Virus record (IMG/VR): IMGVR_UViG_3300037295_000263
Location: 64,001 to 128,000 of that record
Length of the DNA stretch: 64,000 nt
Reading direction: 5' to 3' (one strand)
Source of the DNA: a virus
Lineage: Duplodnaviria > Caudoviricetes
The notes under the pieces are model-generated. The model was not told the DNA's origin, did no database searches, and saw only the letters and a program-made list of their open reading frames with translations. Each line of letters opens with the position of its first letter. Position 1 is the stretch's first letter. The translations under genes and the position numbers were made by a program. Positions 11,076-57,009 of this stretch are shown here, in pieces.

Positions 11076-11980
11076 AAGTAATAGAATTTGATGTAGTTTT
11101 TTTAAGTTATGACGAACCCAATGCAGATCTTCATTATGCGGATTTATGCAATAAAGTGCCATGGGCTAAAAGAGTACACGCTGTAAAAGGTAGCGATGCT
11201 GCGCATAAAGCAGCAGCTAATTTAAGCGATACAGAGTGGTTTATTACAGTAGATGCAGACAACATTGTAGATCCTAGTTTTTTTAATTTAGATCTCAAAA
11301 TGACTAATCCGGATATTAAAGTCTACGGATGGTGTGGCAGAAACGTAGTTAACGGGTTGCGTTATGGAAATGGCGGACTAAAAATTTGGAAAAAAGAATT
11401 CGTGCTAGATATGAAAACACACGAAGCTAGTGAATCCGACAGAGGGCAAGTTGACTTTTGTTGGGAAAAAGGATATCAAAATTTTCCAGTAAGCTTTAGT
11501 GACAGCATTATAACTGGTAGTCAATTTCAAGCATGGCGTGCAGGATTTAGAGAAGGCGTTAAAATGACACTTGATAATGGAGTAAAGGTCCCCCCTTCTG
11601 AAATTGAAAAACGAATATGGTGGCATAATATTCATAGGTTGCGTATGTGGAGCACGGTTGGAGCTCATACAGAACATGGGCTATTTTCAGTGTACGGGGC
11701 TAGACTGGGAACATGGATGGCAAATTGTACAGACTGGGATTATGTTAATGTTCGAGATTTTGAAATTTTAAGAAATATATACAACGAAACTTGTAAAGTT
11801 TACGAAAACGATAATGCATTATTAGTTGATGCAACTGTTGACTTAGGAGAAAAAATAAAACACGATCTAGGATTTCACTGGCCGTATTTAGATTCTTCAC
11901 AAAGCAAATACACTTTTGATTTGTACAATGAAACATTGAATCTTAACGCTACATATTATCAAACACCAAATGATATATGA
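11072..11980 (+). CDS. Putative glycosyltransferase-like protein
   Basis: VVFLSYDE...WFITVDAD (DxD)...YGNGGLKIW...AWRAGFRE; paralog of the next ORF's C-half. Confidence 0.55.
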   Translation: MKVIEFDVVFLSYDEPNADLHYADLCNKVPWAKRVHAVKGSDAAHKAAANLSDTEWFITVDADNIVDPSFFNLDLKMTNPDIKVYGWCGRNVVNGLRYGNGGLKIWKKEFVLDMKTHEASESDRGQVDFCWEKGYQNFPVSFSDSIITGSQFQAWRAGFREGVKMTLDNGVKVPPSEIEKRIWWHNIHRLRMWSTVGAHTEHGLFSVYGARLGTWMANCTDWDYVNVRDFEILRNIYNETCKVYENDNALLVDATVDLGEKIKHDLGFHWPYLDSSQSKYTFDLYNETLNLNATYYQTPNDI

Positions 11981-13019
11981 TGCATTTTACGTTTACACTG
12001 ATAAAAGTAGCCCGGAAGCATTAGCTTCTTTAAAAATCAGGTTTCCTAAAATTCAGGTATTACACAATGTGAAATCTTTTTCGGATATTGCAGAAAGATC
12101 ATTCACTAAGCTATTTTGGATAATATGGGACGACATTGAAATAGATACTGATTTTAATTTTGATTATGTAGTACCTAAATGGGATCAGGAATATATTCAT
12201 GTTTTTAAAAATGGAAAATATTATGACGGTATATGTTTAATTCCTAAAAATGCAAATTGTAGCCAACGAGAATTTGAAAATCGTTTTTTTATTGATAATA
12301 AAAAAGAAATAGACGTTCAAGCTTCGACTCCACGGTTACTTGATATAATTTTTATTAGCTACGACGAATCGCATGCTGATATCATGTATAATAAATTAAT
12401 TAGCAGGTTCCCAAGAGCTAAGAGAATACACAGAGTTAAAGGAATACATAATGCCCATATCGAAGCAGCAAAATTGTCACGCACTAATATGTTTTGGGTA
12501 GTAGATGCCGATTCGGAAATTGTAAAAGACTTTAACTTTACTATCGAACAATTACCGCACCACTGTAAAACAGTGCATGTGTGGCGCAGCAGAAATCCGA
12601 TAAATCAGTTAGAGTATGGATATGGCGGGGTTAAATTACTTCCTAGGAAATTAACAATGAATATGAATACAACAAGCCTCGACATGACTACTAGCATCAG
12701 TGACAGTTTTAAAGTAATGGACGAAGTTAGTAATGTAACTGCGTTTAACACAGATCCTTTTAGCACTTGGAAATCTGCATTTAGGGAATGTGCGAAATTA
12801 TCAAGCGGAATTATCGACCGGCAAAATAACAAAGAAAGTTTAGAACGTTTAACAATATGGAAAACAGTAGGTGAATCTTGCGAGTACGGCAAGTATGCTA
12901 TATCAGGCGCAACACTCGGCGAAAAGTACGGAGAGATGCATAAAGATAACAAAGATGCACTAGTTAAAATAAATGATTTTAGTTGGTTAAAATCGGAGTT
13001 TAATAAACACTATGAATGA
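11970..13019 (+). CDS. Putative glycosyltransferase-like protein (degenerate plus intact domain)
   Basis: IIFISYDE...FWVVDAD...YGYGGVKLL...TWKSAFRE; N-half is a degenerate copy (FWIIWDD). Confidence 0.55.
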   Translation: MIYDAFYVYTDKSSPEALASLKIRFPKIQVLHNVKSFSDIAERSFTKLFWIIWDDIEIDTDFNFDYVVPKWDQEYIHVFKNGKYYDGICLIPKNANCSQREFENRFFIDNKKEIDVQASTPRLLDIIFISYDESHADIMYNKLISRFPRAKRIHRVKGIHNAHIEAAKLSRTNMFWVVDADSEIVKDFNFTIEQLPHHCKTVHVWRSRNPINQLEYGYGGVKLLPRKLTMNMNTTSLDMTTSISDSFKVMDEVSNVTAFNTDPFSTWKSAFRECAKLSSGIIDRQNNKESLERLTIWKTVGESCEYGKYAISGATLGEKYGEMHKDNKDALVKINDFSWLKSEFNKHYE

Positions 13020-14373
13020 AAATATTAAAAAAATAATTCCTATTATGAATGAAATAAGTCCGACTTTTTGTTTGGCTAAATGGCATCATACTACAATCTA
13101 TTTGCAAACAGGAGAAACTCATAGTTGTTATCATCCTGCTCCGCATAGTATTCCTTTAAACGAAATTATCGATAATCCTTCAGCATTGCATAATACATCG
13201 CAGAAAAAACTTGAACGTAAAGCAATGATAGACGGGAAAAAACCTAGCGGATGTCAATATTGCTGGAATATAGAAGCACTAGGCGAAGACTTATTAAGTG
13301 ATAGAAAAGAAAAAAATAGCACAATTTACACACCTGAGAGATTTAAACAAGTTAAAGAAGATTTATTAGGAAATGTTAATCCACAGTATATTGAAATATC
13401 ATTTGGCAACGAATGTAATTTTAAATGCGGGTATTGTCATCCTAAACATAGCAGTAGCTATTATAAAGAAATTAAAGATTTCGGCCCATATTCTACTGTT
13501 AAGAATCACAGAAATGACATTGACTGGTTTAAGATATACGAAGAGGAAACAAACCCGTATGTAGACGCATGGTGGAAATGGTGGCCTGAAGTTCGAGAAA
13601 CTTTAGACATTTTAAGAATTACTGGCGGAGAGCCATTGTTGCAAAAAAGTACATGGAAACTTTTAGAAGATTTAGATGCAAATCCTCAACCAAATTTAGA
13701 AATAAACATCAACAGCAATTTCGGAGTAAAGCCGATATTAATAGAGAGATTAGTAGAAAAAGTTAATGCATTATTATCTCAAGGAAAAATAAAACATTTT
13801 ATGGTTTTTACTAGTATTGATACTTGGGGACCACAAGCCGAGTATATCAGAACAGGACTAGATATTAAATTATGGGAAAAAAATCTTAATACATTTTTAA
13901 CAAGAACTAATTTACCTGTAACTTTTATGATGACATTTAATATTTTGACTGTGACTAATTTTAAATCTTTGTTAGAAAAAGTGTTAGAATGGAGAAACAA
14001 ATACAATACCGATGATCAATCCGTTTGGCAGCGTGTAAGATTTGATACTCCTTATTTAAAAGAGCCGTTACAATACGATATGAACATATTACCAAAAGAA
14101 CAATTTGTTCCGTACATGTATAATAGTTTGGATTTTATAAAAGAAAATTTAGATAATACTGATAAATTTAAATTTAGCAATATTGAATATGATAAATTTT
14201 TTAGAGTATTAAAATATATGGAAACTGAAAATTATCCACAAAACAAGCTAATGGAAGGAAGAAAAGATTTTTATAATTGGTTCACTGAATATGATCGTCG
14301 TCGGGGCACCGATTTTAAAAAAACATTTCCTGAATTAGTTGAGTTTTTTACTAGCTGTGGAAGTATTAGATGA
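13012..14373 (+). CDS. Radical SAM protein with N-terminal Twitch/SPASM-like Cys module
   Basis: CNFKCGYC (CxxxCxxC), ITGGEPL; N-terminal CLAKW...HSCYHP...CQYCW. Confidence 0.85.
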   Translation: MNENIKKIIPIMNEISPTFCLAKWHHTTIYLQTGETHSCYHPAPHSIPLNEIIDNPSALHNTSQKKLERKAMIDGKKPSGCQYCWNIEALGEDLLSDRKEKNSTIYTPERFKQVKEDLLGNVNPQYIEISFGNECNFKCGYCHPKHSSSYYKEIKDFGPYSTVKNHRNDIDWFKIYEEETNPYVDAWWKWWPEVRETLDILRITGGEPLLQKSTWKLLEDLDANPQPNLEININSNFGVKPILIERLVEKVNALLSQGKIKHFMVFTSIDTWGPQAEYIRTGLDIKLWEKNLNTFLTRTNLPVTFMMTFNILTVTNFKSLLEKVLEWRNKYNTDDQSVWQRVRFDTPYLKEPLQYDMNILPKEQFVPYMYNSLDFIKENLDNTDKFKFSNIEYDKFFRVLKYMETENYPQNKLMEGRKDFYNWFTEYDRRRGTDFKKTFPELVEFFTSCGSIR

Positions 14374-15707
14374 CTCCTGCGCAAAAGAAAAAACTTACAA
14401 CATTTACCAAAGAGCTAAATGATGTTAGTCCTAGCTTTTGTGTGGCAAAATGGAAACAAGTTACGTTACACTTGCAAACAGGAAAAACACATAGTTGTCA
14501 TCATCCAACACCTCATAAAATACCTATTGATGAAATAAAAATAGATGTGAGTGCGTTGCATAATACTTCTTATAAAAAAGAACAGCGTAAAAAAATGCTC
14601 ATCGGCGAACGTCCAGAGGAGTGTTCACATTGCTGGAAAGTAGAAGATAATACATCTGCTTACAGCGACAGGATCACTAAAAGCATCGATAAGTGGGCTA
14701 GTCCGTTTATACCGCATATAGCTAACAGCAGCTACAGCGATAACATAAACCCTTCGTATTTAGAAGTAAGTTTTTCCAATACATGTAATTTCAAATGCAG
14801 TTATTGCAGTCCAGAAATTTCAAGTAAATGGTTTGAAGAAATCAAACAACACGGGCCTTATCCGACAAGTACTAAATTTAATAATATAGAATGGCTGGAA
14901 CAAACGGATAGTATTCCTATATTAGAAAAAAATAATAACCCATATATCGATGCCTTTTGGAAATGGTGGCCGAGTTTATATCCTACTCTGCAGGTAATGC
15001 GTATTACTGGCGGGGAACCGTTACTAACTAAGCATACATTTAAAGTGTTGGATTATATTAAACAAGTCCCTAGCAGTCAGTTAGAACTAAATGTAAATTC
15101 TAATTTATGTGTTCCTGAGAAACAGTATAATTTATTTTTAAATAAAATAACAGAAATTGTCGAGTTGGGTTCTGTTAAAGAATTTAAGCTGTATACTAGT
15201 TGCGAGTCAACATCCAGTCGTGCAGAATATATACGGCATGGTTTAAATTATGACCAATGGCTTGCTAATTGTTATAAATTTTTAGACACTGTTCCTAACG
15301 GCAAACTTACTATAATGTCTACGTATAATGCACTAAATGTATCTAGCTTTGCGCTATTCTTGAAGGATGTAGTTTCTTTAAAAGAATATAAGAAAAATGC
15401 AGTTAGCTTAGATATTTCACTATTACGGTGGCCTGCACATTTATCTATTGATATTTTAACTGACGATTTTATAAGTATAGTAGCAAGTCACAAATTGTTT
15501 ATTAAGAATAATCCATTATTTGAAATTCATGAAATAAATAGGATGGAAAGAATTTTCATTAATAATACAAATTCTACTATTAATAGACAAGACTTTTTAT
15601 TATTTGTAGATGAGCATGATCGTCGGCGCGGTACTGATTTTAAAAAAACATTCCCCGAAATGGAGAAATTTTTAAATTTGTGCAACGTTGACGTAAATAC
15701 AATATGA
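14370..15707 (+). CDS. Radical SAM protein, tandem paralog
   Basis: CNFKCSYC, ITGGEPL, CVAKW...HSCHHP...CSHCW; shared C-terminal DRRRGTDFKKTFPE. Confidence 0.85.
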   Translation: MTPAQKKKLTTFTKELNDVSPSFCVAKWKQVTLHLQTGKTHSCHHPTPHKIPIDEIKIDVSALHNTSYKKEQRKKMLIGERPEECSHCWKVEDNTSAYSDRITKSIDKWASPFIPHIANSSYSDNINPSYLEVSFSNTCNFKCSYCSPEISSKWFEEIKQHGPYPTSTKFNNIEWLEQTDSIPILEKNNNPYIDAFWKWWPSLYPTLQVMRITGGEPLLTKHTFKVLDYIKQVPSSQLELNVNSNLCVPEKQYNLFLNKITEIVELGSVKEFKLYTSCESTSSRAEYIRHGLNYDQWLANCYKFLDTVPNGKLTIMSTYNALNVSSFALFLKDVVSLKEYKKNAVSLDISLLRWPAHLSIDILTDDFISIVASHKLFIKNNPLFEIHEINRMERIFINNTNSTINRQDFLLFVDEHDRRRGTDFKKTFPEMEKFLNLCNVDVNTI

Positions 15708-27412: not shown

Positions 27413-28273
27413 TTACGTACCCCATTCGTTCTTGAACAAAGGAACTTGAAGCCTATCACTGTATCGCAAGCCGTGTTTCATTGCCAAGTCCGCCACTTTA
27501 CGATTGTTCAATGCGTAAACACTTTCCACACCACCTACTGGCATTAGATAAATGTGTCCTCTAAACCCAGCTTCACGATACTCTTTAACAGCAAGTCTAG
27601 CATCTGCAAAGTCCTGATCTGTAGCGATTACAAATTTTAAATAAGCAGTACCGACTCGTTCATATTCGCAAACCACATCAGGTCTAATTGCATCTACCCA
27701 TGCTTCGCCTGAACAGGGTAATTTAGCACTCACCGAAAATGTAATTTCACGTTGATGTTTTGGTAATCCTTTCCATACTGTTAAGTAATGTTTAAATTCT
27801 TCAGTTAACTTTTGAGTACCATTTGTTTCAAATGTAATTTCTTTTAAGCCATACATTTTTTCATGATCCAGTAGATCAGGAAATGCACGTTGCCATCCTA
27901 ACAACGGCTCTCCGCCTGTAATAACCAAGTGTTCATCACGCCATTCTTTAAACGGAAGTATTTCGGCAATCCGATCTGCAATAGCATCACTTGTTAGCAT
28001 AGGACTCAACTCTTTAAAATCAGGATGCCAAGATGCGTAACTATCGCAGCCCGTGCTAACAAGCGGCAAGTCTTCGTACTTAAAAAATGTCTCAATCTTT
28101 TTATGTGTGTGTGCTACTTCATCTGCTTCTGTGCTAAGTTCACCACGCGGCATACCGAATCCCGAGCAGGTAAAATTACACCCGAATGTACGCAGAAATA
28201 CACTAGGGACGCCCATATAACGTCCTTCGCCTTGTATACTGTAGAACAGCTCTGCTATTTTAATTTTGCTCAT
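27413..28273 (-). CDS. queE: 7-carboxy-7-deazaguanine synthase QueE (radical SAM), atypical Cys spacing
   Basis: ELFYSIQGEGRYMGVPSVFLRTFGCNFTC...GCDS, ITGGEP, ETNGT, SVSAK, RLQVPLF. Confidence 0.85.
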   Translation of the reverse strand: MSKIKIAELFYSIQGEGRYMGVPSVFLRTFGCNFTCSGFGMPRGELSTEADEVAHTHKKIETFFKYEDLPLVSTGCDSYASWHPDFKELSPMLTSDAIADRIAEILPFKEWRDEHLVITGGEPLLGWQRAFPDLLDHEKMYGLKEITFETNGTQKLTEEFKHYLTVWKGLPKHQREITFSVSAKLPCSGEAWVDAIRPDVVCEYERVGTAYLKFVIATDQDFADARLAVKEYREAGFRGHIYLMPVGGVESVYALNNRKVADLAMKHGLRYSDRLQVPLFKNEWGT

Positions 28274-34021: not shown

Positions 34022-34911
34022 AAATTCTCAATTTGTTGATGTATCCATATATCTTGGGAAAGTTGCTCTTCCCAAAACTTATTATTATTTAGATTATTAA
34101 TAGCAGTTGATACCATAGTCTTGTAGGCTGATTCAGGACACAAGCCTAGCATATAAGACGATTCGGAAGTATCTGTAAAAAACGTAATGCTGCAGTTGTC
34201 ACGATTTAAATTAGTTTTCCAATTAGCACTAATATTCCATTCTTTATTATTGTTGAATTGTATATAACTATAATCATCTACATCATACGTTCCGTTTGAA
34301 TTAACAGTGCCATAATCAGTACTAAAAATGTCCGATAGATTGTAGTGTTGTTTCGAGTCAGATTTAACAGGTGCTACTTTTGAGTAATCTGCTAATATAC
34401 AATAATAACTAAGCATGTGAGGAATAAGATCCCTGCTTACTCCTCCATATGCCAATGCTTTCGTAGTAAACCAACTTCCAGGATAAGGAATCCTGTTAGA
34501 ATTATTCCATTGGATACTTATTTTATTACTACGTTCGCATTGAGATCGAAACAACTCAATTTCTTCTCTGTATTGATTATTCTTAATCATCATAAATCGA
34601 GTCTTTGGAAAATCCTTAACTAGCTGCGCCCATGCATTAGAATCTTTTACTCCTGGTTTTTCGATTAATACAATTTTACACTTATCTGCAATATTCCTTG
34701 CAATTGCTTCATGTGTAAAATTAGGAGTACAAATTACAGCAATATCATATTGCTTGGTTACTTCTTGGATATTGCCGTAAGTTGCATTTTTTTCAACATC
34801 AGTATCAACAGTATCTACATTGTACTCTAGTTCTAAAAATACATTTTTGTATAACTGTCCTATACCTAGACCTACTATTAAACTATTCAGTTTATTATCT
34901 GCTGATATCAT
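34018..34911 (-). CDS. Gfo/Idh/MocA family oxidoreductase
   Basis: VGLGIG, ICTPNFTH, LIEKP, GGVSRDLIPHML. Confidence 0.8.
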   Translation of the reverse strand: MISADNKLNSLIVGLGIGQLYKNVFLELEYNVDTVDTDVEKNATYGNIQEVTKQYDIAVICTPNFTHEAIARNIADKCKIVLIEKPGVKDSNAWAQLVKDFPKTRFMMIKNNQYREEIELFRSQCERSNKISIQWNNSNRIPYPGSWFTTKALAYGGVSRDLIPHMLSYYCILADYSKVAPVKSDSKQHYNLSDIFSTDYGTVNSNGTYDVDDYSYIQFNNNKEWNISANWKTNLNRDNCSITFFTDTSESSYMLGLCPESAYKTMVSTAINNLNNNKFWEEQLSQDIWIHQQIENL

Positions 34912-36611
34912 TTAATTTCATTTTCCAACTGATCAAGTTTAAGTTTTTCTTCTTCAGAAAATTCCCCGTCGTCATGTAATGTTGATGTGTCGTCGGATAC
35001 TTCCTTAAATAATTTAAAAAAATTATTACTAGAATTAACTGTCTTTTTACCTACCGCTCCTCGAGTTCCAGGTATAGCTTGCCAGAATTTATCATAATAA
35101 TCGATAATAGCAATGGCAGATTCCCTATCTTTTGCAGCAAAAATTTCATTTACTATGTCTTTAAAGTAGGTCCTGTTAAATTTCTCATCTACTAACATTG
35201 CAGGACATAACCCGGCATCGTACTGGCGATTAGCTTCTTGCACAGCACTAATATGCATCCATACATTATGGCCCATCATAATAGCATACGTGAAACTGTC
35301 CCAGCTAGTTTTGTTTACTTTACCCATCCTGTTTACGTTACCCGGTGCATAAACACATATTTCGTTCATCTTAACACCGTCTATAACTGGGCTATTTGTA
35401 AAGTTTTTAAAATGTCCATCTTGCACTAAGACGTCTCTGAATAAACGGGTATCGGCTGCGTATTTTTTGTCGTCAATACTAGGCAACATTCTGTAGATCC
35501 ACTTTTTCCGGTCTGCAATTTCTGTTTGGACATAGATTTGTCCATTTGCTGTTGCAAGAAACGGTGAGGCGCAATCAAAAGATATGGTAAAGTTTTCATT
35601 GTGATGTTTCCTTATAGCACGTTGTATATCGGTTAATAATAAAGCCCATTCTAGTTTACTAGTTCCTAGAAAGTGCATCCAGTCTTGCTGGCCTTTTTCT
35701 AGCAGACCATCGAATTTTAAAGCAACCAGTCTTCGTAATACCAAGTCTACGTCGCACATATTTTGTCCGCCCATCGCCCAACCATTAAAAGCTCGATCAC
35801 CGTAAATTTTAGGATCACAAAAATCTTTCATTTTATTATACCAGTCGTCTGCTTGACCATGATGTTCACCTTGCAGAACATTTAAAAATTTACAAGCACC
35901 AGTACGATTCTTGATAAAATATTCATTGTTATATTTGGTGGCCATTACTGCTTGATCATAATCTTTGACTCCGCTATTTTTGGCGCCGATAGGACTGCGC
36001 CCCACCCATGCTGGGATATCAAGTACCATACCATAATCCATTAATGCATCCATCCAAGTTAACACTTGTTCTCGCTTTTTTTGAGCAGCATCTAATTTTG
36101 CTTGATATACTTTGACGTGGTCAATTTTGGAATATTTTATAGCTCTTTTTTTGTCCGTTTTAGGATTACCAGTAACAGGATCTATTATAGGAACTAACTC
36201 GATTCCTTTAGCAACGGCATCTGCCATTAATGCAGCAACTTCGGGACCGGTAGGGTCCTTCCATTCCCCTTCCCATACTCCTTTGCCGATCTGGAATCCG
36301 CCCGAGTCGCCTAATACCCAACTGTTTGTACGGTCTCGATTTCTAAACATAGATTCTCTGTCGTCATTTTTATTAAGATCCAAATTTGCATGTCCTGCAG
36401 AATACAAGCAATGATCGAAATTAAACAGCCCGTTTACTGGATCTAAAAAATTAAGACCTTCGACATCCGTTACAAAATTTTGAGGAATTCTGCTTGGTTG
36501 TACATACGGGTATCTATGTCTTTGATATCCAATAAACGATGCATAGAATCCTGATGTAGCAGGAAGAAAGTATGCATAGTCGTTTTGAGTTGCTGTTAAA
36601 TTTTTATTCAT
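34908..36611 (-). CDS. dpdA: TGT-fold deazaguanine DNA transglycosylase (DpdA-like)
   Basis: LGDSGGFQ, LDIP, LNVLQG, GWAMGG, MHFLG, SFDCASP motifs of the TGT/DpdA family; clustered with folE and queE. Confidence 0.7.
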   Translation of the reverse strand: MNKNLTATQNDYAYFLPATSGFYASFIGYQRHRYPYVQPSRIPQNFVTDVEGLNFLDPVNGLFNFDHCLYSAGHANLDLNKNDDRESMFRNRDRTNSWVLGDSGGFQIGKGVWEGEWKDPTGPEVAALMADAVAKGIELVPIIDPVTGNPKTDKKRAIKYSKIDHVKVYQAKLDAAQKKREQVLTWMDALMDYGMVLDIPAWVGRSPIGAKNSGVKDYDQAVMATKYNNEYFIKNRTGACKFLNVLQGEHHGQADDWYNKMKDFCDPKIYGDRAFNGWAMGGQNMCDVDLVLRRLVALKFDGLLEKGQQDWMHFLGTSKLEWALLLTDIQRAIRKHHNENFTISFDCASPFLATANGQIYVQTEIADRKKWIYRMLPSIDDKKYAADTRLFRDVLVQDGHFKNFTNSPVIDGVKMNEICVYAPGNVNRMGKVNKTSWDSFTYAIMMGHNVWMHISAVQEANRQYDAGLCPAMLVDEKFNRTYFKDIVNEIFAAKDRESAIAIIDYYDKFWQAIPGTRGAVGKKTVNSSNNFFKLFKEVSDDTSTLHDDGEFSEEEKLKLDQLENEIK

Positions 36612-37345
36612 TATTTACTCTGCGCTGGAAGTATGTAGTTGTACTCTGCTAATCCGCTATCGACAGCAATCATCATAACACCAGCGTCTGAAATTTTTAC
36701 ATTCTTATTTCCGTCTAGATTGAGAATGCTCATAACAATACCAACAGGCCAAGATAATGATTGTTTTAAATTACCAGTAATGCCTGATTGAAAAGTAAAG
36801 CTGCCTGCGTGTGTACTAGCATCTCCAAACAAGAATACTAAGTTACCATTTTCTGTTTTAACGTGAAAAACATTTTCTTCAGTGTGTGCAGATGCTTGCA
36901 GTTTTAATCTGCCAATGCTAGACATCGATGGTTCAAATTCGATATTCCACGTAGCACCTTTGAATTTAACTGTTTTTAGTTTTTCGTTAATAATATCGTG
37001 AACCATGAATCTATAATCGTTTTGAAAATCTCCAGCCGCATTTTCAAAATGCAAACTAGTAGGCATATCAACGCCATTGCGATTAGAAATAACAACCTCG
37101 ATTTTTGCATTATCTTTATATTCAGGATTCTTTAAATGTAAACTTAACTTATCTAAGTTAGGCATACCGAAAACTGAATCTGCAAATTGTGCTACATCTT
37201 TTTTTGTTTTACATACCAAAATAACACTACGGTCATCTGACATCGATTCGATGTGTGTGCCTGTACTATCGCCAGTAATCTTTACTAATGGGATAACACC
37301 TAAGCTATAAGTGTGTGCTACAATGTCCATTAAAATATCTTGCAT
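36611..37345 (-). CDS. Putative sliding clamp (T4 gp45-like)
   Basis: 244 aa, two-domain alpha/beta size, directly downstream of the polymerase. Start at ATG 37345 after AAGGAG. Confidence 0.6.
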   Translation of the reverse strand: MQDILMDIVAHTYSLGVIPLVKITGDSTGTHIESMSDDRSVILVCKTKKDVAQFADSVFGMPNLDKLSLHLKNPEYKDNAKIEVVISNRNGVDMPTSLHFENAAGDFQNDYRFMVHDIINEKLKTVKFKGATWNIEFEPSMSSIGRLKLQASAHTEENVFHVKTENGNLVFLFGDASTHAGSFTFQSGITGNLKQSLSWPVGIVMSILNLDGNKNVKISDAGVMMIAVDSGLAEYNYILPAQSK

Positions 37346-37367
37346 TAAAATTTCTCCTTTATAATAT

Positions 37368-37396
37368 ATTGTATTTAGGTTTGAGTTGAAACTCAA
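37368..37396 (-). promoter_or_regulatory. Sigma70-type promoter TTGAGT-N17-TACAAT
   Basis: Upstream of the clamp-dpdA run; overlaps a small inverted repeat. Confidence 0.55.
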
Positions 37397-37421
37397 CTTT
37401 TATTTCTACCGTTTAATTCTC

Positions 37422-40091
37422 TTATTCAAAAGAAAATAAGTTTACAAAATTGTTGTCGCTTCTTGTAGATTTAATATCCCATTCGAGAACACCGATTAAG
37501 TTTTCTAATTTCTCATCAATAACAGCAGTTTCCATTTCCGCGTCATTAAATGGCAGATCTTTGAACCACTGCGGTAATCTTAATTCGTCGACAGGATACG
37601 CAACACTTGTATGACCTAATGGATTACTTTTTAATTTACAAACAATGACCTTTGCACCGTCTGTAATGTTTATACTATATTTGTCATCCATCATGCGTTT
37701 AAGAGTGTTCCAGTTGATACTAGCTCTAACATGCCCTGGCATATTTGCTTTACCTGCGGTTTTCTCTTTAGCTTGATACAGCGTAATATTATTAGCACGT
37801 TTTGGGCTACCCTTTTCCCATCCGGGCCTTAGTTTAAATTTAGTCCGGAATTCACAAATATGTGCTAGTACTTGTTCTTTTTCAACACCGTTAAGAACCA
37901 TAGTTAGTACTTCATTTAAAAAGTCTTGAATTACAACTGGAGTATCTGACCTTTTAAGATCTAGCCCTAGTGCTTTAATCTTGCCAGGCAATCCATTTAC
38001 ATCTGCTCGTTTTCCTTCCTTATCGTAATAAAGAACTGCATACCTTTTCTTTGTAATAAACAACCCTTTAGATGCAACTAATTCTCTGCCTGCCCGGATA
38101 ACTTCTCCTCTGGATTTAGGACAATGAAATGCATCTTGCATAAATTTAGGAAATGTACTATTCACTTCCTCACCGATAGTATCATACAGTTCAACAATCG
38201 ATTCTTTATTCCATGATAATTTCCCTAAATCGATTTCTTTCTTTAATGTAGGATACGCTGAAAAATAACAACTATCAGTATCTCCATAAATAATCGATTT
38301 TCCAGTATGACTAAATTCACCAGTAATAATCTCGTTAACTTTCCCGGCCATGTGTCGTGCAATTGCTCTGCCAGTTAGAGTAGTTGACTGTCCAATCCGC
38401 TTGTCGAAAAATCTACATCCTGGATTCAGAATTGCACCATATAAACTGTTTAAGTTAATTTTCTTTACTAATTGCCGTTTATCCCAATATTCTTCTTCGA
38501 TTTTATTACCAGCAGCAATTGCATCCTTTAGCTTACTTTGCATTTCTTTACGTTCAGCGTACCATCGTTTTAACAGTCCGGGAATAATTCCTTCCGACTC
38601 GTAGGTAAAGATTGTGCCGTTGGCACTTAACGTCCACGGCTGGTTGCTGTCAAAAATTAAGTCGTGTATTTGTGCAGCCGATAATGTATCGCTTCCGCCG
38701 TTTTCCCAATCTATTTGAATATCTCTTCCGGCTTCTCTGCTCATTACTGCGCTATATTCTAAACTACCAAATATACCTTCCCATGCTGCCGCGAATGATT
38801 TTCCTTTTGCTATCTGTGAATCGATAAAGTCATTAGTGCCATCTTGACGTAACTGTCCTACGATAGTTTCAGGACCCATGTTAAGTGCTCGAATAGCACT
38901 AGGATACAGTGAATTAATATCTAACGATCCAATCCATTCGTGTATGCCTTTTTTAGGATATGCAACATACGCACCTGCTGCTTGATTAGTTTCATTGGGA
39001 TCTCTGTGTTTACGATTAGGAACTATCATTCCTCTTTTATGTGCTTCATTGATGATAGCTTGTTCGGTAACAGCTACTGCTCCCATGGTAGTTTGTAACA
39101 ACACTGTACATTCGTGTGCCAACGTATTAGCGAGATCTAGAAATTTTAATTTTCTATCTAAACTATCTAACAACATAGTATCTTGTCTGTTGTATTCGAT
39201 AAATGTTTTAAAGTCGTTATTATATAATTGATCCAGCGATCCTTCATATTGTGTCTTAGTTTCTCCTAGCTCATATTCTGCAATAGAATTCAAACTGTAG
39301 CTATGACGTTCTTCATACGTATATTTGCGATACAACTCTAAACTATCTAAGTGAACACGTCCTACTAAATCGTAAGTACTAGCAGTCTTTCCGTATTTTT
39401 CATACTCTCTCTTTTTTGGATATTGGCCCCACAAGCAAAATCGTTTAGTATCTTCTTTGCTAAGGACTTTGGTAACTCTATTAACAGTATAAGGAATATC
39501 AAAGCCTTCACTATTCCACCCACTTAACACATCAGCATCTTGTATTAAATCTAAAAACGAATCTAACATTTCCGATTCACTTTTAAATAAAATAGTGTTT
39601 GGGAAATCTTTTACTTGGTGCGTAGCCTCTTCCATAGACAATGTTTTTGGCGGTATTGCTAAGCATACTAAAGTATCGAGCCATTGTAAATGAACTGCTA
39701 TTGCAGTTATTGGCATAAATGCATCTGCAGGCGATGCATATCCTCGTTCTGGGTCAAAATCTACTTCAATGTCAAAGAACGCTACGTTAAGTTTCGGAGC
39801 ATCTTGATTTAGGTAATTATCTTCTAGACAGCGATAAACAGGGTTGATGTCGCTTTCGTGTAATTTCTTATTATTGTGTATTGCCATTTCTTTTCGGTGC
39901 TCTTTTAAGTTCCTGGAACTTACCCGACTCAATGGCTCTTTTTTTATTGATTGAAACTTTCCCTTAACATCATAGTAGTAAAATAAATGTCTAGCAGGAA
40001 ATTCTTTGTAATGCCTCTTTCCATCAGTATCTCGTTCTACAACGTTAATTGCATCTTGATCTCTATTATAAAATGCATCTACATAACTCAT
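37422..40091 (-). CDS. gp43: Family B DNA polymerase (T4 gp43-like)
   Basis: Exo FDIEV, GWNSEGFDIPY, YNRQD; Pol SLDINSLYPS, KINLNSLYG, YGDTDS, KKRY; C-terminal FVNLFSF. Confidence 0.95.
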   Translation of the reverse strand: MSYVDAFYNRDQDAINVVERDTDGKRHYKEFPARHLFYYYDVKGKFQSIKKEPLSRVSSRNLKEHRKEMAIHNNKKLHESDINPVYRCLEDNYLNQDAPKLNVAFFDIEVDFDPERGYASPADAFMPITAIAVHLQWLDTLVCLAIPPKTLSMEEATHQVKDFPNTILFKSESEMLDSFLDLIQDADVLSGWNSEGFDIPYTVNRVTKVLSKEDTKRFCLWGQYPKKREYEKYGKTASTYDLVGRVHLDSLELYRKYTYEERHSYSLNSIAEYELGETKTQYEGSLDQLYNNDFKTFIEYNRQDTMLLDSLDRKLKFLDLANTLAHECTVLLQTTMGAVAVTEQAIINEAHKRGMIVPNRKHRDPNETNQAAGAYVAYPKKGIHEWIGSLDINSLYPSAIRALNMGPETIVGQLRQDGTNDFIDSQIAKGKSFAAAWEGIFGSLEYSAVMSREAGRDIQIDWENGGSDTLSAAQIHDLIFDSNQPWTLSANGTIFTYESEGIIPGLLKRWYAERKEMQSKLKDAIAAGNKIEEEYWDKRQLVKKINLNSLYGAILNPGCRFFDKRIGQSTTLTGRAIARHMAGKVNEIITGEFSHTGKSIIYGDTDSCYFSAYPTLKKEIDLGKLSWNKESIVELYDTIGEEVNSTFPKFMQDAFHCPKSRGEVIRAGRELVASKGLFITKKRYAVLYYDKEGKRADVNGLPGKIKALGLDLKRSDTPVVIQDFLNEVLTMVLNGVEKEQVLAHICEFRTKFKLRPGWEKGSPKRANNITLYQAKEKTAGKANMPGHVRASINWNTLKRMMDDKYSINITDGAKVIVCKLKSNPLGHTSVAYPVDELRLPQWFKDLPFNDAEMETAVIDEKLENLIGVLEWDIKSTRSDNNFVNLFSFE

Positions 40092-54195: not shown

Positions 54196-54519
54196 CTATT
54201 CCTCGAGAAGATTAATTTTATTGGGTGTTCCGTTCCATTCGGCAGCATCGGGTAACGCTTCTTTTTTTCGAGTAATATTTGGCCATTTTTTGCTAAGCCG
54301 TGTATTAATATCGAGCCAAAAAACTACGTCAATATCGATATCGTTGTCTGTTTTAATAGCATCGACTGGGCATTCGGGTATGCACACTCCGCAGTCTATA
54401 CATTCATCGGGATCGATTGCTAAAAAGTTTGGACCTTCATAAAAACAATCAACAGGACATACTGAAACACAATCTGTATGTTTACATTTAATACAGTTAT
54501 CAGTTACTAGGTGTGTCAC
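54196..54519 (-). CDS. fdxA: FdxA-type (Azotobacter FdI-like) ferredoxin
   Basis: [18 protein letters not shown]...[12 protein letters not shown]; C-terminal WPNIT; GTG start. Confidence 0.9.
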
Positions 54520-55435
54520 GATTCAGCGCCGATAATTTAATAAGACATGCAGCTAAGTTAATTTCCGCATCCGCCACTAGCGTATGATCAACCAGGCCTT
54601 GTTTGATTATTACAATAGCACGGTCTTGTATTATTTCATCTCCGAAAATTTCTATATTGTCATATAACCATCTGTATACTTCTAGCATTTCTTCAGGTTG
54701 GATCTTACCACACAACATCCTTCTTGCATCAGTAATTTTTCCAGCTTTAAACATTTCTACCATATCAAACTTCCAATCTGCGATTCCCGAGTCACCTGCA
54801 GATGGAATACTTAGCTTACCTTCAATTACATTTTGTTGCAATAAGTTGATACATTTACGTAAGTCAGGGTAGGCAGCTCTTACATAGCTATCTAAAGTAT
54901 CGAGATCGAAATCGACATCTTCAGTAACAAGTATAGTTGCTACCCTGGCTGTAAACTCGGTATGATCAATTTTTTCAACATGAAATCCTTGACATCTGCT
55001 ATGGAGAGCTGGAATAATTTTATGAGGATAGTTACATGTAAGAATAAATCTTGCAGTACTATGGTATTCTTCCATAACTCCACGCAACGCTGCTTGCGCA
55101 TTAGGACTTAGGTAATCAGCTTCGTCGAGCAATACAACTTTAAATGGGCCAAACGGGATCATTTGCACAAAGTTAGTAATTTTATCTCTAACATCTTCAA
55201 CAGAGTTTGTACGACTAGCATTAATTTCTAAAACGTCAAATCCTTCTATTCCTATTTCGTTGATTAATATTTTGGCTAACGTTGTTTTACCGATACCTGC
55301 ACTTCCGCTGAGTAGTAAATGTGGTATACTTTTATCAGAAATCCATGTTTTAACTTGACGTTTTTGATTTTCGTCACGGAATACATATTCATTTACAGTT
55401 TTAGGACGATATTGCTCTACCCATAGTTGTTTCAT
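54500..55435 (-). CDS. gp44: Clamp loader AAA+ subunit (T4 gp44/RFC small-like)
   Basis: [36 protein letters not shown]. Confidence 0.9.
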
Positions 55436-56326: not shown

Positions 56327-56545
56327 TTATTTTTTGTTAATTCGATCAGCAGCCGTACGATCATTATTGTTGTAATAATCCTGCAAAATTTCTTCTTTAG
56401 TACGGAGAATCTTTCCGCCCGGTCCCAACTCGTCTCCTCTGGCGTTTACGTTAATATTACCTACTGCAGGAGTTAGTTCGTTTTTTAATGCAAGCTTCTC
56501 CATATCAATTTCTTTACCTTTCATACTTGTGTATATTTTACCCAT
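56327..56545 (-). CDS. Hypothetical protein
   Basis: 72 aa; AAGGAG RBS; NARGDELGPGG. Confidence 0.7.
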   Translation of the reverse strand: MGKIYTSMKGKEIDMEKLALKNELTPAVGNINVNARGDELGPGGKILRTKEEILQDYYNNNDRTAADRINKK

Positions 56546-57009
56546 TATTTTTCTCCTTTGAAAAATTCATTTATCGGTATCTCGTATTTAATACTATCGA
56601 TGCGGTGCACTCCTATTAAAAAGAGCACATAACTTGCTACGCTACTGCCTCTGCCTACACCCCAAATAACATTATTACTACGCAATACATCTACAATATA
56701 TTTCATAACATATAAAATGTCTAGCATTTCGTGCTTGATGTATAGTTCTAATTCCTGACTAACTCGATTTGTTTCTTCTTCTGTTTTGCACATTCCGTAT
56801 AAAATTTCTATAAGATTTGGACAATATTGTTCAGGAATGAACCAGTTATTTGGATTTATATCTTTTAACGGAACAGGATAGTTTAAATGCTCATTGTGTA
56901 ATCGAGTTGTATATTGACTTAAATCGTCTGAAGTTTGGCACCGGTCTAAAATATCTGGCCCGTGCCGCATAACTCCTTCTATTAAGTTTTCTATTGTATT
57001 AGTTGACAT
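56545..57009 (-). CDS. Stand-alone fragment homologous to DNA polymerase III alpha (DnaE) palm entry region
   Basis: RVSQELE...YIVD...WGVGRGSSVASYVLFLIGVHRIDSIKY...EFF; stops before the catalytic PDID. Confidence 0.75.
   Translation of the reverse strand: MSTNTIENLIEGVMRHGPDILDRCQTSDDLSQYTTRLHNEHLNYPVPLKDINPNNWFIPEQYCPNLIEILYGMCKTEEETNRVSQELELYIKHEMLDILYVMKYIVDVLRSNNVIWGVGRGSSVASYVLFLIGVHRIDSIKYEIPINEFFKGEK

What the first reader, a model, noticed from the sequence alone, without database searches (positions are those of the whole stretch)
35007..37454. DpdA-like enzyme carries a copy of the polymerase's C-terminal clamp-binding-like motif and is translationally coupled to the clamp
Seen: the polymerase ends SDNNFVNLFSFE (37428-37454) and the DpdA-like protein has SSNNFFKLFKE (35007-35027) before an acidic tail. 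The clamp stop overlaps the DpdA start (TAATG at 36611). Established: T4/RB69 gp43 docks on gp45 through a C-terminal hydrophobic peptide of LFDMF type. Inference: the transglycosylase rides the sliding clamp, so base exchange is coupled to the replication fork rather than purely post-replicative.
Basis: partly seen in the sequence, partly recalled or inferred. Interest (0 to 1): 0.75.

Follow-up and report, generated by a model that had tools for sequence, protein, structure and literature searches.

The report
Clamp-docking motif on phage DNA-modifying enzyme
A giant uncultured phage, and many of its relatives, put the same short docking peptide on their DNA polymerase and on an enzyme thought to swap guanine for a modified base, which suggests the enzyme rides the sliding clamp and protects new DNA as it is copied.

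Summary
On the minus strand, a T4-type family B polymerase (37422-40091) ends NNFVNLFSFE. A 244-aa ORF follows (36611-37345). Then comes a 567-aa ORF (34908-36611) with NNFFKLFKE at residues 529-537. The TAATG overlap at 36609-36613 is real.

The 244-aa protein models as a PCNA-fold clamp (VIA-align Z 18.5), and the genome encodes a gp44-like clamp loader. The 567-aa protein models as a TGT fold (Z 19.0) and keeps the three catalytic aspartates. It lacks the TGT/DpdA zinc site and misses the Pfam TGT threshold.

The motif sits in a low-confidence tail outside the fold. In 80 related loci it occurs either just after the fold or at the extreme C-terminus. Across six lineages, including Pseudomonas phage PA5oct and Vibrio phage 2.275.O, it tracks the cognate polymerase's C-terminus. 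Complex prediction gave weak support only (0.49 against 0.00 for controls).

Polymerase-clamp-enzyme order holds in all 80 IMG/VR loci and in PA5oct, Vibrio 2.275.O, L171 and L173 (not in Phosso). The start/stop overlap is present in only 26 of 68 loci.

Most likely this is a clamp-tethered, replication-coupled DNA transglycosylase (confidence about 0.55). No paper found describes it. This scan had already noted the same stretch (e1-5411578; its follow-up is withheld).

The parts
37422..40091 (-). Family B (T4 gp43-type) DNA polymerase, 889 aa
   Evidence: PF00136 E 3e-34 and PF03104 E 5e-20. phrog_262 E 3e-198, covering residues 1-882.
37425..37460 (-). Polymerase C-terminal peptide SDNNFVNLFSFE (residues 878-889), the presumed clamp-binding epitope
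   Evidence: Read directly from the ORF. It occupies the same position as the T4 gp43 tail ...ASLDFLFG. Relatives end NTFN[SK]LF[ED]F.
36611..37345 (-). Sliding clamp, PCNA fold, 244 aa
   Evidence: AF2 model pLDDT 90.5. Foldseek E 1e-10 to PCNA. VIA-align Z 18.5, rmsd 3.2, 227 residues aligned to yeast PCNA over residues 1-244. phrog_12062.
36609..36613 (-). TAATG: the clamp stop codon overlaps the start of the TGT-like gene by one base
   Evidence: Sequence read. The same overlap occurs in 26 of 68 related loci.
35079..36611 (-). TGT-fold catalytic body of the 567-aa enzyme (residues 1-511). Conserved active-site residues: D102 (GDSGGFQ), D198 (LDIP), D346 (SFDCASP)
   Evidence: AF2 pLDDT 93.3. 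Foldseek: the top 50 hits are all TGT, E 2e-7. VIA-align Z 19.0, 300 residues aligned to 2ash. hhalign to E. coli TGT 92%, E 6.5e-7, with the motifs aligned. D102, D346 and H313 are invariant in 92 diverse members.
35034..35069 (-). Conserved basic segment GTRGxxGKKTVN (residues 515-526) between the fold and the motif; function unknown
   Evidence: Nearly invariant in alignment A3. Kept in both tail architectures. pLDDT falls here.
35001..35033 (-). SSNNFFKLFKE (residues 527-537): copy of the polymerase's C-terminal motif, the candidate clamp-binding peptide
   Evidence: F535 is invariant. The region has pLDDT 48-56 with a short helix at 527-534, outside the fold. Family-wide enrichment. Covaries with the polymerase tails. 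Complex prediction gave weak support.
34956..35000 (-). Acidic linker VSDDTSTLHDDGEFS (residues 538-552)
   Evidence: Sequence. pLDDT below 50 at residues 538-543. F551 is invariant.
34911..34955 (-). Conserved C-terminal amphipathic helix EEEKLKLDQLENEIK (residues 553-567); partner unknown
   Evidence: Helix 553-566 with pLDDT 84-88. L559, L562 and E563 are invariant. PA5oct has KLTELEQGLDN.
54500..55435 (-). gp44-like clamp-loader subunit, 311 aa (context for the clamp)
   Evidence: T4 gp44 as query against the phage's own genome: E 1.3e-20, 32% identity over residues 11-311. ORF coordinates.

Best explanation
The 567-aa protein is a zinc-less member of the TGT superfamily. Most likely it exchanges guanine in phage DNA for a 7-deazaguanine derivative, as DpdA does. 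Its disordered C-terminal tail carries the same hydrophobic-plus-acidic peptide that ends the phage's own polymerase. I infer that this peptide docks in the hydrophobic pocket of the phage's PCNA-fold clamp, which is encoded between the two genes. That would keep the enzyme on clamps left on freshly replicated duplex, so new DNA is modified at or just behind the fork.

Shown here: the fold of both proteins, the conserved catalytic aspartates, the disordered location of the motif, its conservation in two alternative positions, and its lineage-by-lineage match to the polymerase tail.

Inferred: physical binding to the clamp, DNA (not tRNA) as substrate, the identity of the inserted base, and any gain in modification efficiency.
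For: 1. Clamp. The AF2 model (pLDDT 90.5) is a full-length PCNA fold: Foldseek E 1e-10; VIA-align Z 18.5, rmsd 3.2, 227 residues aligned. A gp44-like loader is present.

2. Enzyme. TGT fold with Z 19.0 over 300 residues. hhalign to E. coli TGT is 92%, E 6.5e-7, and aligns GDSGGFQ, LDIP, NVLQG, GWAMGG and SFDCASP to the TGT active-site motifs. BFVD neighbours include the TGT of phage Motura and the 464-aa TGT-like protein of Vibrio phage nt-1.

3. Context. Homologues sit beside QueE, QueF, QueC and FolE in PA5oct and Vibrio 2.275.O, and beside FolE in L173 and L174. QueE is at 27413-28273 in this window. PA5oct DNA is reported to carry a modified G (PMC12191111).

4. The motif lies outside the fold, at pLDDT 48-56.

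5. In 80 IMG/VR loci every readable polymerase C-terminus (78 of 80) ends NTFN[SK]LF[ED]F. The enzyme has the motif either directly after the fold with an acidic tail (..ST.F..LFDE..) or, where that copy is missing, at the very C-terminus (TTFDSLFE*, NNFMDLFE*, LNESLFEF*).

6. Polymerase and enzyme tails covary:
- window: NNFVNLFSFE / NNFFKLFKE
- PA5oct: HFDSLFGW / SFNSLFDV
- Vibrio 2.275.O: NNTDLFDW / NNNDLFGW
- L171: KAMKLFNY / KAKSLFEF
- L173: LDDLFDF / VNNLFDFS

7. Among 102 full-length representatives of 50%-identity clusters, [FY]-polar-polar-[LM]F occurs in the last 60 residues of 22, against 0.9 expected (maximum 4 in 500 shuffles).

8. Precedent. T4 gp43, gp55 and gp33 share interchangeable 'hydrophobic and acidic' C-terminal clamp epitopes on flexible linkers (PMC2988020). 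The T4 tails were read.

9. Complex prediction gave weak support. ipSAE was 0.49 (runs 0.43-0.50) against a best control of 0.00. That mark was reached by 58 of 80 solved complexes and 2 of 110 mismatched pairs. At 0.60 or under, however, it was reached by only 7 of those 80 solved complexes and by both mismatches. The runs share at least 34% of contacts, and the partner's pLDDT is at least 43. The pass may also reflect memory of PCNA-peptide complexes.
Against: - No binding or activity data exist.
- The complex score falls in the band where passes are more often wrong than right unless the guess was already likely.
- The clamp shows no sequence similarity to T4 gp45 (hhalign 1.5%), so transferring the T4 rule is by analogy.
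- Other expected clamp clients in this genome lack the motif: the gp55-like factor and the FEN/RNase H-like nuclease. Only the polymerase anchors its identification as a clamp epitope.
- In this window the motif is 30 residues from the C-terminus, not terminal.
- The enzyme lacks the CxCxxC...H zinc site conserved in TGT and DpdA (PMC10164549) and fails Pfam TGT.
- The characterised DpdA2-type enzyme of T4-like phage nt-1 has no such motif, so tethering is not general to phage DpdA.
Confidence: 0.55

Rival explanations
1. The shared peptide is a real docking motif, but its partner is not the phage clamp. It could be another replisome hub such as the phage single-strand-binding protein, the helicase-primase, or the host beta clamp, whose QL[SD]LF motif it also resembles.
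For: The cores SLFEF and DLFDW resemble the bacterial beta-clamp pentapeptide (from general knowledge). Complex prediction with the phage clamp was only weak. The gp55-like and FEN-like proteins lack the motif.
Against: The phage encodes its own PCNA-fold clamp and a gp44-like loader. By the T4/RB69 precedent, the C-terminus of a T4-type polymerase is its clamp epitope. The clamp gene lies between the two motif-bearing genes in all 80 IMG/VR loci and in PA5oct, Vibrio 2.275.O, L171 and L173, though not in Phosso. All three controls scored 0.00.
Confidence: 0.15
2. The clamp tether is real, but the enzyme is not a 7-deazaguanine-inserting DpdA. It could be a TGT-fold DNA glycosylase, or an enzyme that exchanges or removes a different base.
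For: The defining zinc site is absent in all 92 family members. There is no Pfam or PHROG match. Large insertions make it 567 aa, against about 375 aa for TGT. Oxidoreductase and glycosyltransferase genes follow it.
Against: The catalytic Asp triad and the substrate-pocket motifs align with TGT. There is repeated linkage to FolE, QueE, QueC and QueF in distant phages. No canonical TGT/DpdA was found in the record, which is an estimated 59% complete. PA5oct has a modified G.
Confidence: 0.15
3. The resemblance has no shared-partner meaning. The tail motif would serve the enzyme itself, for example in dimerisation, autoinhibition or solubility, and look like the polymerase end by chance or through a past recombination.
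For: The motif is short and low in complexity. Looser versions ([FY]..[LF]F[DEKS]) occur at the chance rate in this proteome: 9 observed against 9.9 expected.
Against: NNF..LF occurs twice against 0.055 expected. The motif is kept at two alternative positions in different tail architectures. It covaries with the polymerase tails in six lineages at 27-80% enzyme identity. Enrichment is 22 against 0.9 across the family.
Confidence: 0.1

Closest known systems
T4/RB69 sliding-clamp epitopes: the C-terminal peptides of gp43, gp55 and gp33 that bind gp45
   Same: A short hydrophobic-plus-acidic peptide on a flexible linker, shared between the polymerase and other clamp clients and interchangeable among them (PMC2988020). 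The T4 tails ...SLDFLFG and ...SLDFLYEAND were read. In gp55 the motif is also followed by a few acidic residues.
   Different: The client here is a DNA-modifying enzyme, not a transcription factor. The clamp is PCNA-like and has no detectable sequence similarity to gp45. The motif consensus is (N/T)(N/T)FxxLF(D/E)(F/W), not SLDFL(F/Y). In many members it is internal and followed by a tail of about 30 residues with its own conserved helix.
Phage and bacterial DpdA DNA-guanine transglycosylases (bDpdA, DpdA1-4)
   Same: TGT fold, conserved catalytic aspartates, and linkage to FolE/QueD/QueE-type genes. BFVD neighbours include the phage Motura TGT and the 464-aa TGT-like protein of Vibrio phage nt-1. 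There is a weak profile match to the presumed DpdA3-type protein of Cellulophaga phage phi19:2 (87%).
   Different: No structural zinc site (compared with PMC10164549). Below the Pfam TGT threshold. Much larger (430-620 aa). Encoded directly after the polymerase and clamp. Carries the polymerase-like tail motif, which the nt-1 enzyme and phi19:2 gp042 lack. The literature treats DpdA action as post-replicative (PMC10516641).
Eukaryotic clamp-tethered DNA-modifying and repair enzymes (DNMT1-PCNA, UNG2-PCNA; from general knowledge)
   Same: The concept is the same. An enzyme that acts on bases in duplex DNA uses a PIP-type peptide to ride the clamp, so that nascent DNA is processed at the fork.
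   Different: Unrelated enzymes and a different motif (Qxx[ILM]xx[FY][FY]). No viral or prokaryotic base-exchange enzyme has been described with this arrangement in the papers searched.
Bacterial beta-clamp-binding motif QL[SD]LF (from general knowledge)
   Same: The cores SLFEF, DLFDW and NSLF resemble the pentapeptide.
   Different: The phage brings its own PCNA-fold clamp and loader. The conserved Gln is absent, and an upstream aromatic residue (FxxLF) is common.

Membership tests
PCNA/gp45-class sliding clamp | Two tandem DNA-clamp domains in a protomer of about 230-260 aa | tested here: met
   AF2 pLDDT 90.5. Foldseek E 1e-10 with TM 0.68-0.71 to PCNA. VIA-align Z 18.5, rmsd 3.2, 227 residues aligned over residues 1-244.
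PCNA/gp45-class sliding clamp | Sequence-level membership in the T4 gp45 family | tested here: not met
   No Pfam hit. The profile found no clamp in the PDB. hhalign against T4 gp45 gave probability 1.5%.
PCNA/gp45-class sliding clamp | A cognate clamp loader encoded by the same genome | tested here: met
   gp44-like ORF at 54500-55435(-), E 1.3e-20 against T4 gp44.
PCNA/gp45-class sliding clamp | Closed trimeric ring that encircles DNA | not tested
   Only the monomer was modelled.
TGT superfamily / DpdA DNA-guanine transglycosylase | (beta/alpha)8 TGT fold | tested here: met
   The top 50 Foldseek hits are all TGT, E 2e-7. VIA-align Z 19.0, rmsd 4.2, 300 residues aligned to 2ash_B.
TGT superfamily / DpdA DNA-guanine transglycosylase | Catalytic and substrate aspartates (Z. 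mobilis D102, D156, D280; S. Montevideo DpdA D95, D130, D256) | tested here: met
   hhalign aligns D102 (GDSGGFQ), D198 (LDIP) and D346 (SFDCASP) to TDSGGFQ, FDECTP and MFDCVMP of E. coli TGT. D102 and D346 are invariant and D198 is at least 90% conserved in 92 members.
TGT superfamily / DpdA DNA-guanine transglycosylase | Structural zinc site CxCxxC...H, stated to be conserved in the DpdA family and in TGTs (PMC10164549) | tested here: not met
   No CxCxxC in the query or in any of the 92 family members, and no conserved Cys cluster.
TGT superfamily / DpdA DNA-guanine transglycosylase | Pfam PF01702 above its gathering score | tested here: not met
   No hit for the protein, for any of the 92 members, or anywhere in the genome.
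TGT superfamily / DpdA DNA-guanine transglycosylase | Genomic linkage to 7-deazaguanine synthesis genes | tested here: met
   QueE at 27413-28273 and a QueD-like gene elsewhere in the genome. QueE, QueF, QueC and FolE lie next to homologues in PA5oct, Vibrio 2.275.O, L173 and L174.
TGT superfamily / DpdA DNA-guanine transglycosylase | Exchange of guanine in DNA for a 7-deazaguanine base | not testable with these tools
   Needs an enzyme assay or LC-MS/MS of phage DNA.
T4-type clamp-binding epitope | Short hydrophobic/aromatic core with adjacent acidic residues | tested here: met
   NNFFKLFKEVSDD. The family consensus is FxxLF(D/E).
T4-type clamp-binding epitope | Lies on an unstructured linker or tail outside the catalytic fold | tested here: met
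   pLDDT 48-56 for residues 520-550, against more than 90 for the body.
T4-type clamp-binding epitope | Same sequence as the cognate polymerase's C-terminus | tested here: met
   Six lineages with matching pairs.
T4-type clamp-binding epitope | Position at or next to the extreme C-terminus | tested here: inconclusive
   The window copy is 30 residues from the end. 36 of the 78 IMG/VR loci with a readable enzyme C-terminus (L036-L044, L047-L049, L051-L057, L059-L073, L079-L080), together with Vibrio 2.275.O, L171, L173 and L174, carry it at the very end. T4 gp55 has four trailing residues.
T4-type clamp-binding epitope | Physical, motif-dependent binding to the clamp | not testable with these tools
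   Only a prediction is available: weak support, 0.49 against 0.00 for controls.

The most novel reading that the evidence does not exclude
This may be a large, previously unnamed family of zinc-less TGT-fold enzymes in T4-like and jumbo phages: 929 clusters at 50% identity, including PA5oct. If so, it is the first base-exchange DNA-modification enzyme that is a bona fide sliding-clamp client. Guanine would be replaced by a 7-deazaguanine derivative co-replicatively, directly behind the fork. That would make it a viral counterpart of DNMT1-PCNA. It would also offer a mechanistic reason why some phages reach near-complete replacement while untethered DpdAs modify only a small fraction of G.
Probability: 0.4. 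Interest if true: 0.8.

Novelty: new variant of a known kind. Interest (0 to 1): 0.7.

Why it matters
Insertion of 7-deazaguanine into phage DNA is currently described as a post-replicative event carried out by free DpdA enzymes (PMC10516641). How some phages modify all or most guanines before host nucleases act is not explained.

A clamp-docking peptide on the transglycosylase gives a concrete, testable answer: the enzyme is delivered to every stretch of new duplex by the clamps the replisome leaves behind.

The idea can be tested in a cultivable phage. PA5oct has the same arrangement and a reported modified G. The finding would add a new class of client to the phage clamp 'toolbelt'. It would also define a recognisable sequence signature (polymerase-like tail on a TGT-fold protein next to the clamp gene) for finding hypermodified phage genomes in metagenomes.

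Tried and rejected
- **Sequence searches, both proteins.** Searches of Pfam and of PDB sequences gave nothing useful for either protein. PHROGs gave no match for the enzyme and only phrog_12062, of unknown function, for the clamp. Only structure prediction resolved them.
- **Clamp against T4 gp45.** hhalign found no relationship.
- **Other motif bearers in the genome.** A 68-aa ORF ending NSYHSLFKMIKKA looked promising. Its homologues read ...YHQIFKILAGRA, which looks like a structural helix, so I rejected it. The gp55-like factor (281 aa) and the FEN/RNase H-like nuclease have no motif. No ATP-dependent ligase was found.
- **QueD-like C-terminus NEDLFS.** It is conserved among close relatives. 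The PA5oct-type QueD lacks it and ACP17 has EGLL instead. I left it as an open side observation.
- **Is the motif general to phage DpdA?** No. The nt-1 TGT-like protein ends ...AEYPDFKS while its gp43 ends ...TLESFFG. phi19:2 gp042, which I presume is DpdA3-type, has none.
- **Supplementary tables of PMC10516641** are not held, so I could not check whether PA5oct-type proteins were already listed as DpdA.
- **Complex prediction.** The first call failed because the machine was busy; the repeat ran.
- **Not run:** a trimeric clamp, or the polymerase tail as a positive control.

Full report
**What is there.**
The region is one minus-strand gene run in a 216.7-kb uncultured phage record; the window is bases 64001-128000 of it. 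The genes run in this order:
- a family B polymerase of T4 type at 37422-40091 (PF00136, PF03104, phrog_262 E 3e-198);
- a 244-aa ORF at 36611-37345;
- a 567-aa ORF at 34908-36611;
- Gfo/Idh/MocA and MDR oxidoreductases, a T-fold protein and, further on, a QueE-like gene.

The polymerase ends SDNNFVNLFSFE. The 567-aa protein has SSNNFFKLFKE at residues 527-537, followed by VSDDTSTLHDDGEFSEEEKLKLDQLENEIK. The clamp's stop codon and the next gene's start codon overlap as TAATG. NNF..LF occurs twice in 242 predicted genes, against 0.055 expected, and only in these two tails.

**The 244-aa ORF is a sliding clamp.**
It has no Pfam or PDB sequence match and no profile similarity to T4 gp45. An AlphaFold2 model built from 38 homologues (pLDDT 90.5) is nevertheless a complete two-domain PCNA fold. 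Foldseek gives E 1e-10 and TM about 0.7. VIA-align gives Z 18.5, rmsd 3.2 and 227 aligned residues over 1-244. The genome also encodes a gp44-like clamp-loader subunit at 54500-55435. Homologues in cultured phages are annotated as PCNA or as a sliding clamp in two records.

**The 567-aa ORF is a TGT-fold enzyme, but not a textbook DpdA.**
It has no Pfam, PHROG or PDB sequence hit, even with profiles or across 92 diverse members. The AlphaFold2 model (pLDDT 93.3) matches only tRNA-guanine transglycosylases at the top: Foldseek E 2e-7; VIA-align Z 19.0 over 300 residues.

A profile comparison with E. coli TGT (92%, E 6.5e-7) aligns these pairs:
- GDSGGFQ with TDSGGFQ
- LDIP with FDECTP
- NVLQG with GIIQG
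- GWAMGG with GYAVGG
- SFDCASP with MFDCVMP

That covers the three catalytic or substrate aspartates. D102, H313 and D346 are invariant across the family.

Among viral models, the named neighbours are the Motura TGT, the nt-1 TGT-like protein and several phage queuine tRNA-ribosyltransferases. There is also a weak profile link to the presumed DpdA3-type protein of Cellulophaga phage phi19:2.

Two points count against simple membership. The CxCxxC...H zinc site is stated to be conserved in DpdA and TGT (PMC10164549), yet it is absent from all 92 members. PF01702 also finds nothing in the genome.

The context favours a 7-deazaguanine role. Homologues lie beside QueE in PA5oct, and beside QueF, QueC and FolE in Vibrio phage 2.275.O. 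They lie beside FolE in two metagenomic contigs. PA5oct DNA resists several restriction enzymes in a way that points to a modified G (PMC12191111).

The family is large: 929 clusters at 50% identity.

**The motif.**
In the model the fold ends near residue 511. Residues 524-543 have pLDDT below about 55, with a short helix at 527-534. A final helix at 553-566 is confident. So the motif is exposed, not buried.

Comparison with relatives is the strongest evidence.
- In 80 IMG/VR loci (68-80% enzyme identity), every readable polymerase C-terminus (78 of 80) ends NTFN[SK]LF[ED]F.
- The enzyme shows two tail architectures. Type A has the motif directly after the conserved GTRGxxGKKTVN segment (ST.F..LFDE), followed by an acidic stretch and a conserved KLDxLE helix.
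- Type B has lost the motif at that position (NAHTKAEEFGIP...). Instead it ends in TTFDSLFE, NNFMDLFE, LNESLFEF or LNDNLFEL.
- A motif retained at either of two positions in otherwise different tails is the behaviour expected of a short linear docking motif.

The motif also tracks the cognate polymerase in distant phages:

| Lineage | Polymerase tail | Enzyme motif |
|---|---|---|
| PA5oct | HFDSLFGW | SFNSLFDV (internal, then acidic tail and KLTELE helix) |
| Vibrio 2.275.O | NNTDLFDW | NNNDLFGW (terminal) |
| contig L171 | KAMKLFNY | KAKSLFEF |
| contig L173 | LDDLFDF | VNNLFDFS |

Across 102 full-length family representatives, [FY]-polar-polar-[LM]F occurs in the last 60 residues of 22, against 0.9 expected. 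[LM]F lies within two residues of the C-terminus in 15, against 1.3 expected.

**Why the clamp is the likely partner.**
[quoted passage not shown] These are the clamp-binding epitopes, they sit on flexible linkers, and they can be swapped freely (PMC2988020). The T4 tails read here are ...ASLDFLFG and ...SLDFLYEAND. The polymerase here is of the same type and its tail occupies the same position.

The clamp gene lies between the polymerase and enzyme genes in all 80 IMG/VR loci. The same holds in PA5oct, Vibrio 2.275.O, L171 and L173. In Sinorhizobium phage Phosso the clamp and enzyme homologues lie about 174 kb apart.

A complex prediction of the clamp with enzyme residues 512-567 gave weak support. 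ipSAE was 0.49 (three runs, 0.43-0.50) against 0.00 for all three controls. That mark was reached by 58 of 80 solved complexes and 2 of 110 mismatches. At 0.60 or under, only 7 of those 80 solved complexes and both mismatches reached it. Run-to-run contact agreement was at least 34% and the partner's pLDDT at least 43. The pass may reflect memory of PCNA-peptide structures.

**What does not fit or is not shown.**
- The TAATG overlap is present in only 26 of 68 scorable loci. The rest carry 266-1164 bp of inserted sequence between the two genes, and PA5oct and Vibrio 2.275.O have small ORFs there. Gene order is conserved, but translational coupling is not.
- The gp55-like factor and the FEN/RNase H-like nuclease of this phage have no such tail.
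- The DpdA2-type protein of T4-like phage nt-1, and the small gp042 of phi19:2 (presumed DpdA3-type), lack any polymerase-like motif. Tethering would therefore be a trait of this family, not of DpdA in general.
- Binding, substrate and product are all untested.

**Comparison with what is known, and novelty.**
Clamp-binding peptides and phage DpdA enzymes are each well known. I found no paper that links them. The current literature concludes that 7-deazaguanine insertion is post-replicative (PMC10516641).

The chemistry proposed here is still base exchange on duplex DNA. A clamp tether would make it co-replicative in space and time. The nearest conceptual parallels are DNMT1 and UNG2 on PCNA (from general knowledge).

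I class this as a new variant of a known kind. Confidence in the clamp-tethered transglycosylase reading is about 0.55. The same stretch was already noted in this scan (e1-5411578); its follow-up was withheld and not used.

Noticed in passing
L083:685-1188 (-), which is genome 138684-139187, outside the window: The QueD-like CPH4 synthase (phrog_2389, E 5e-36) ends ...REWNEDLFS. The terminal EDLF is kept in most of the 80 related loci. It extends past the region that aligns to most other phage QueD proteins. It could be a second clamp-type tail on a pathway enzyme, but the PA5oct-type QueD lacks it and ACP17 has EGLL.
   Followed up: partly
34911-34955 and 35034-35069 (-): Two further conserved elements flank the motif. 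One is a basic GTRGxxGKKTVN segment kept in both tail architectures. The other is a C-terminal amphipathic helix (F551, L559, L562 and E563 invariant; KLTELE in PA5oct). Neither has a known function. The helix may bind a second partner or pack back on the enzyme.
   Followed up: partly
L001-L080, between the clamp and enzyme genes: 42 of 68 related loci carry 266-1164 bp inserted exactly at the clamp/enzyme junction. Many also have about 800 bp inserted between polymerase and clamp. This looks like a hotspot for small mobile ORFs; their content was not examined.
   Followed up: no
L173:7843-9966 and 11520-13392: In one distant relative, sugar-nucleotide genes (CTP_transf_like, phosphomannomutase, mannose-phosphate isomerase/cupin) sit between the clamp and the TGT-like gene and just after it, ahead of FolE. 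Together with the oxidoreductases and the GT-B gene in this window, this hints at a sugar-decorated deazaguanine.
   Followed up: no
L171:4955-9154 and 13616-14971: In another relative the polymerase is split into three ORFs, the first with an intein-splicing domain. A Cas12f1/TnpB-like gene lies about 2 kb downstream of the TGT-like gene. PA5oct's polymerase is likewise split by a Hef-like homing endonuclease gene.
   Followed up: no
genome 40725-41570 (-), before the window: The gp55-like late factor is 281 aa, against 185 aa in T4. It ends ...GPDFSEVRHNQNNDSES and has no T4-type hydrophobic clamp epitope, so clamp-activated late transcription may work differently here or not at all.
   Followed up: partly
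56545-57009 (-): A 154-aa ORF matches the C-terminal part of a PHROG annotated as DNA polymerase (phrog_11127, E 3e-37). It lies about 1.1 kb from the gp44-like clamp-loader gene and ends ...INEFFKGEK. Its role is unclear.
   Followed up: no
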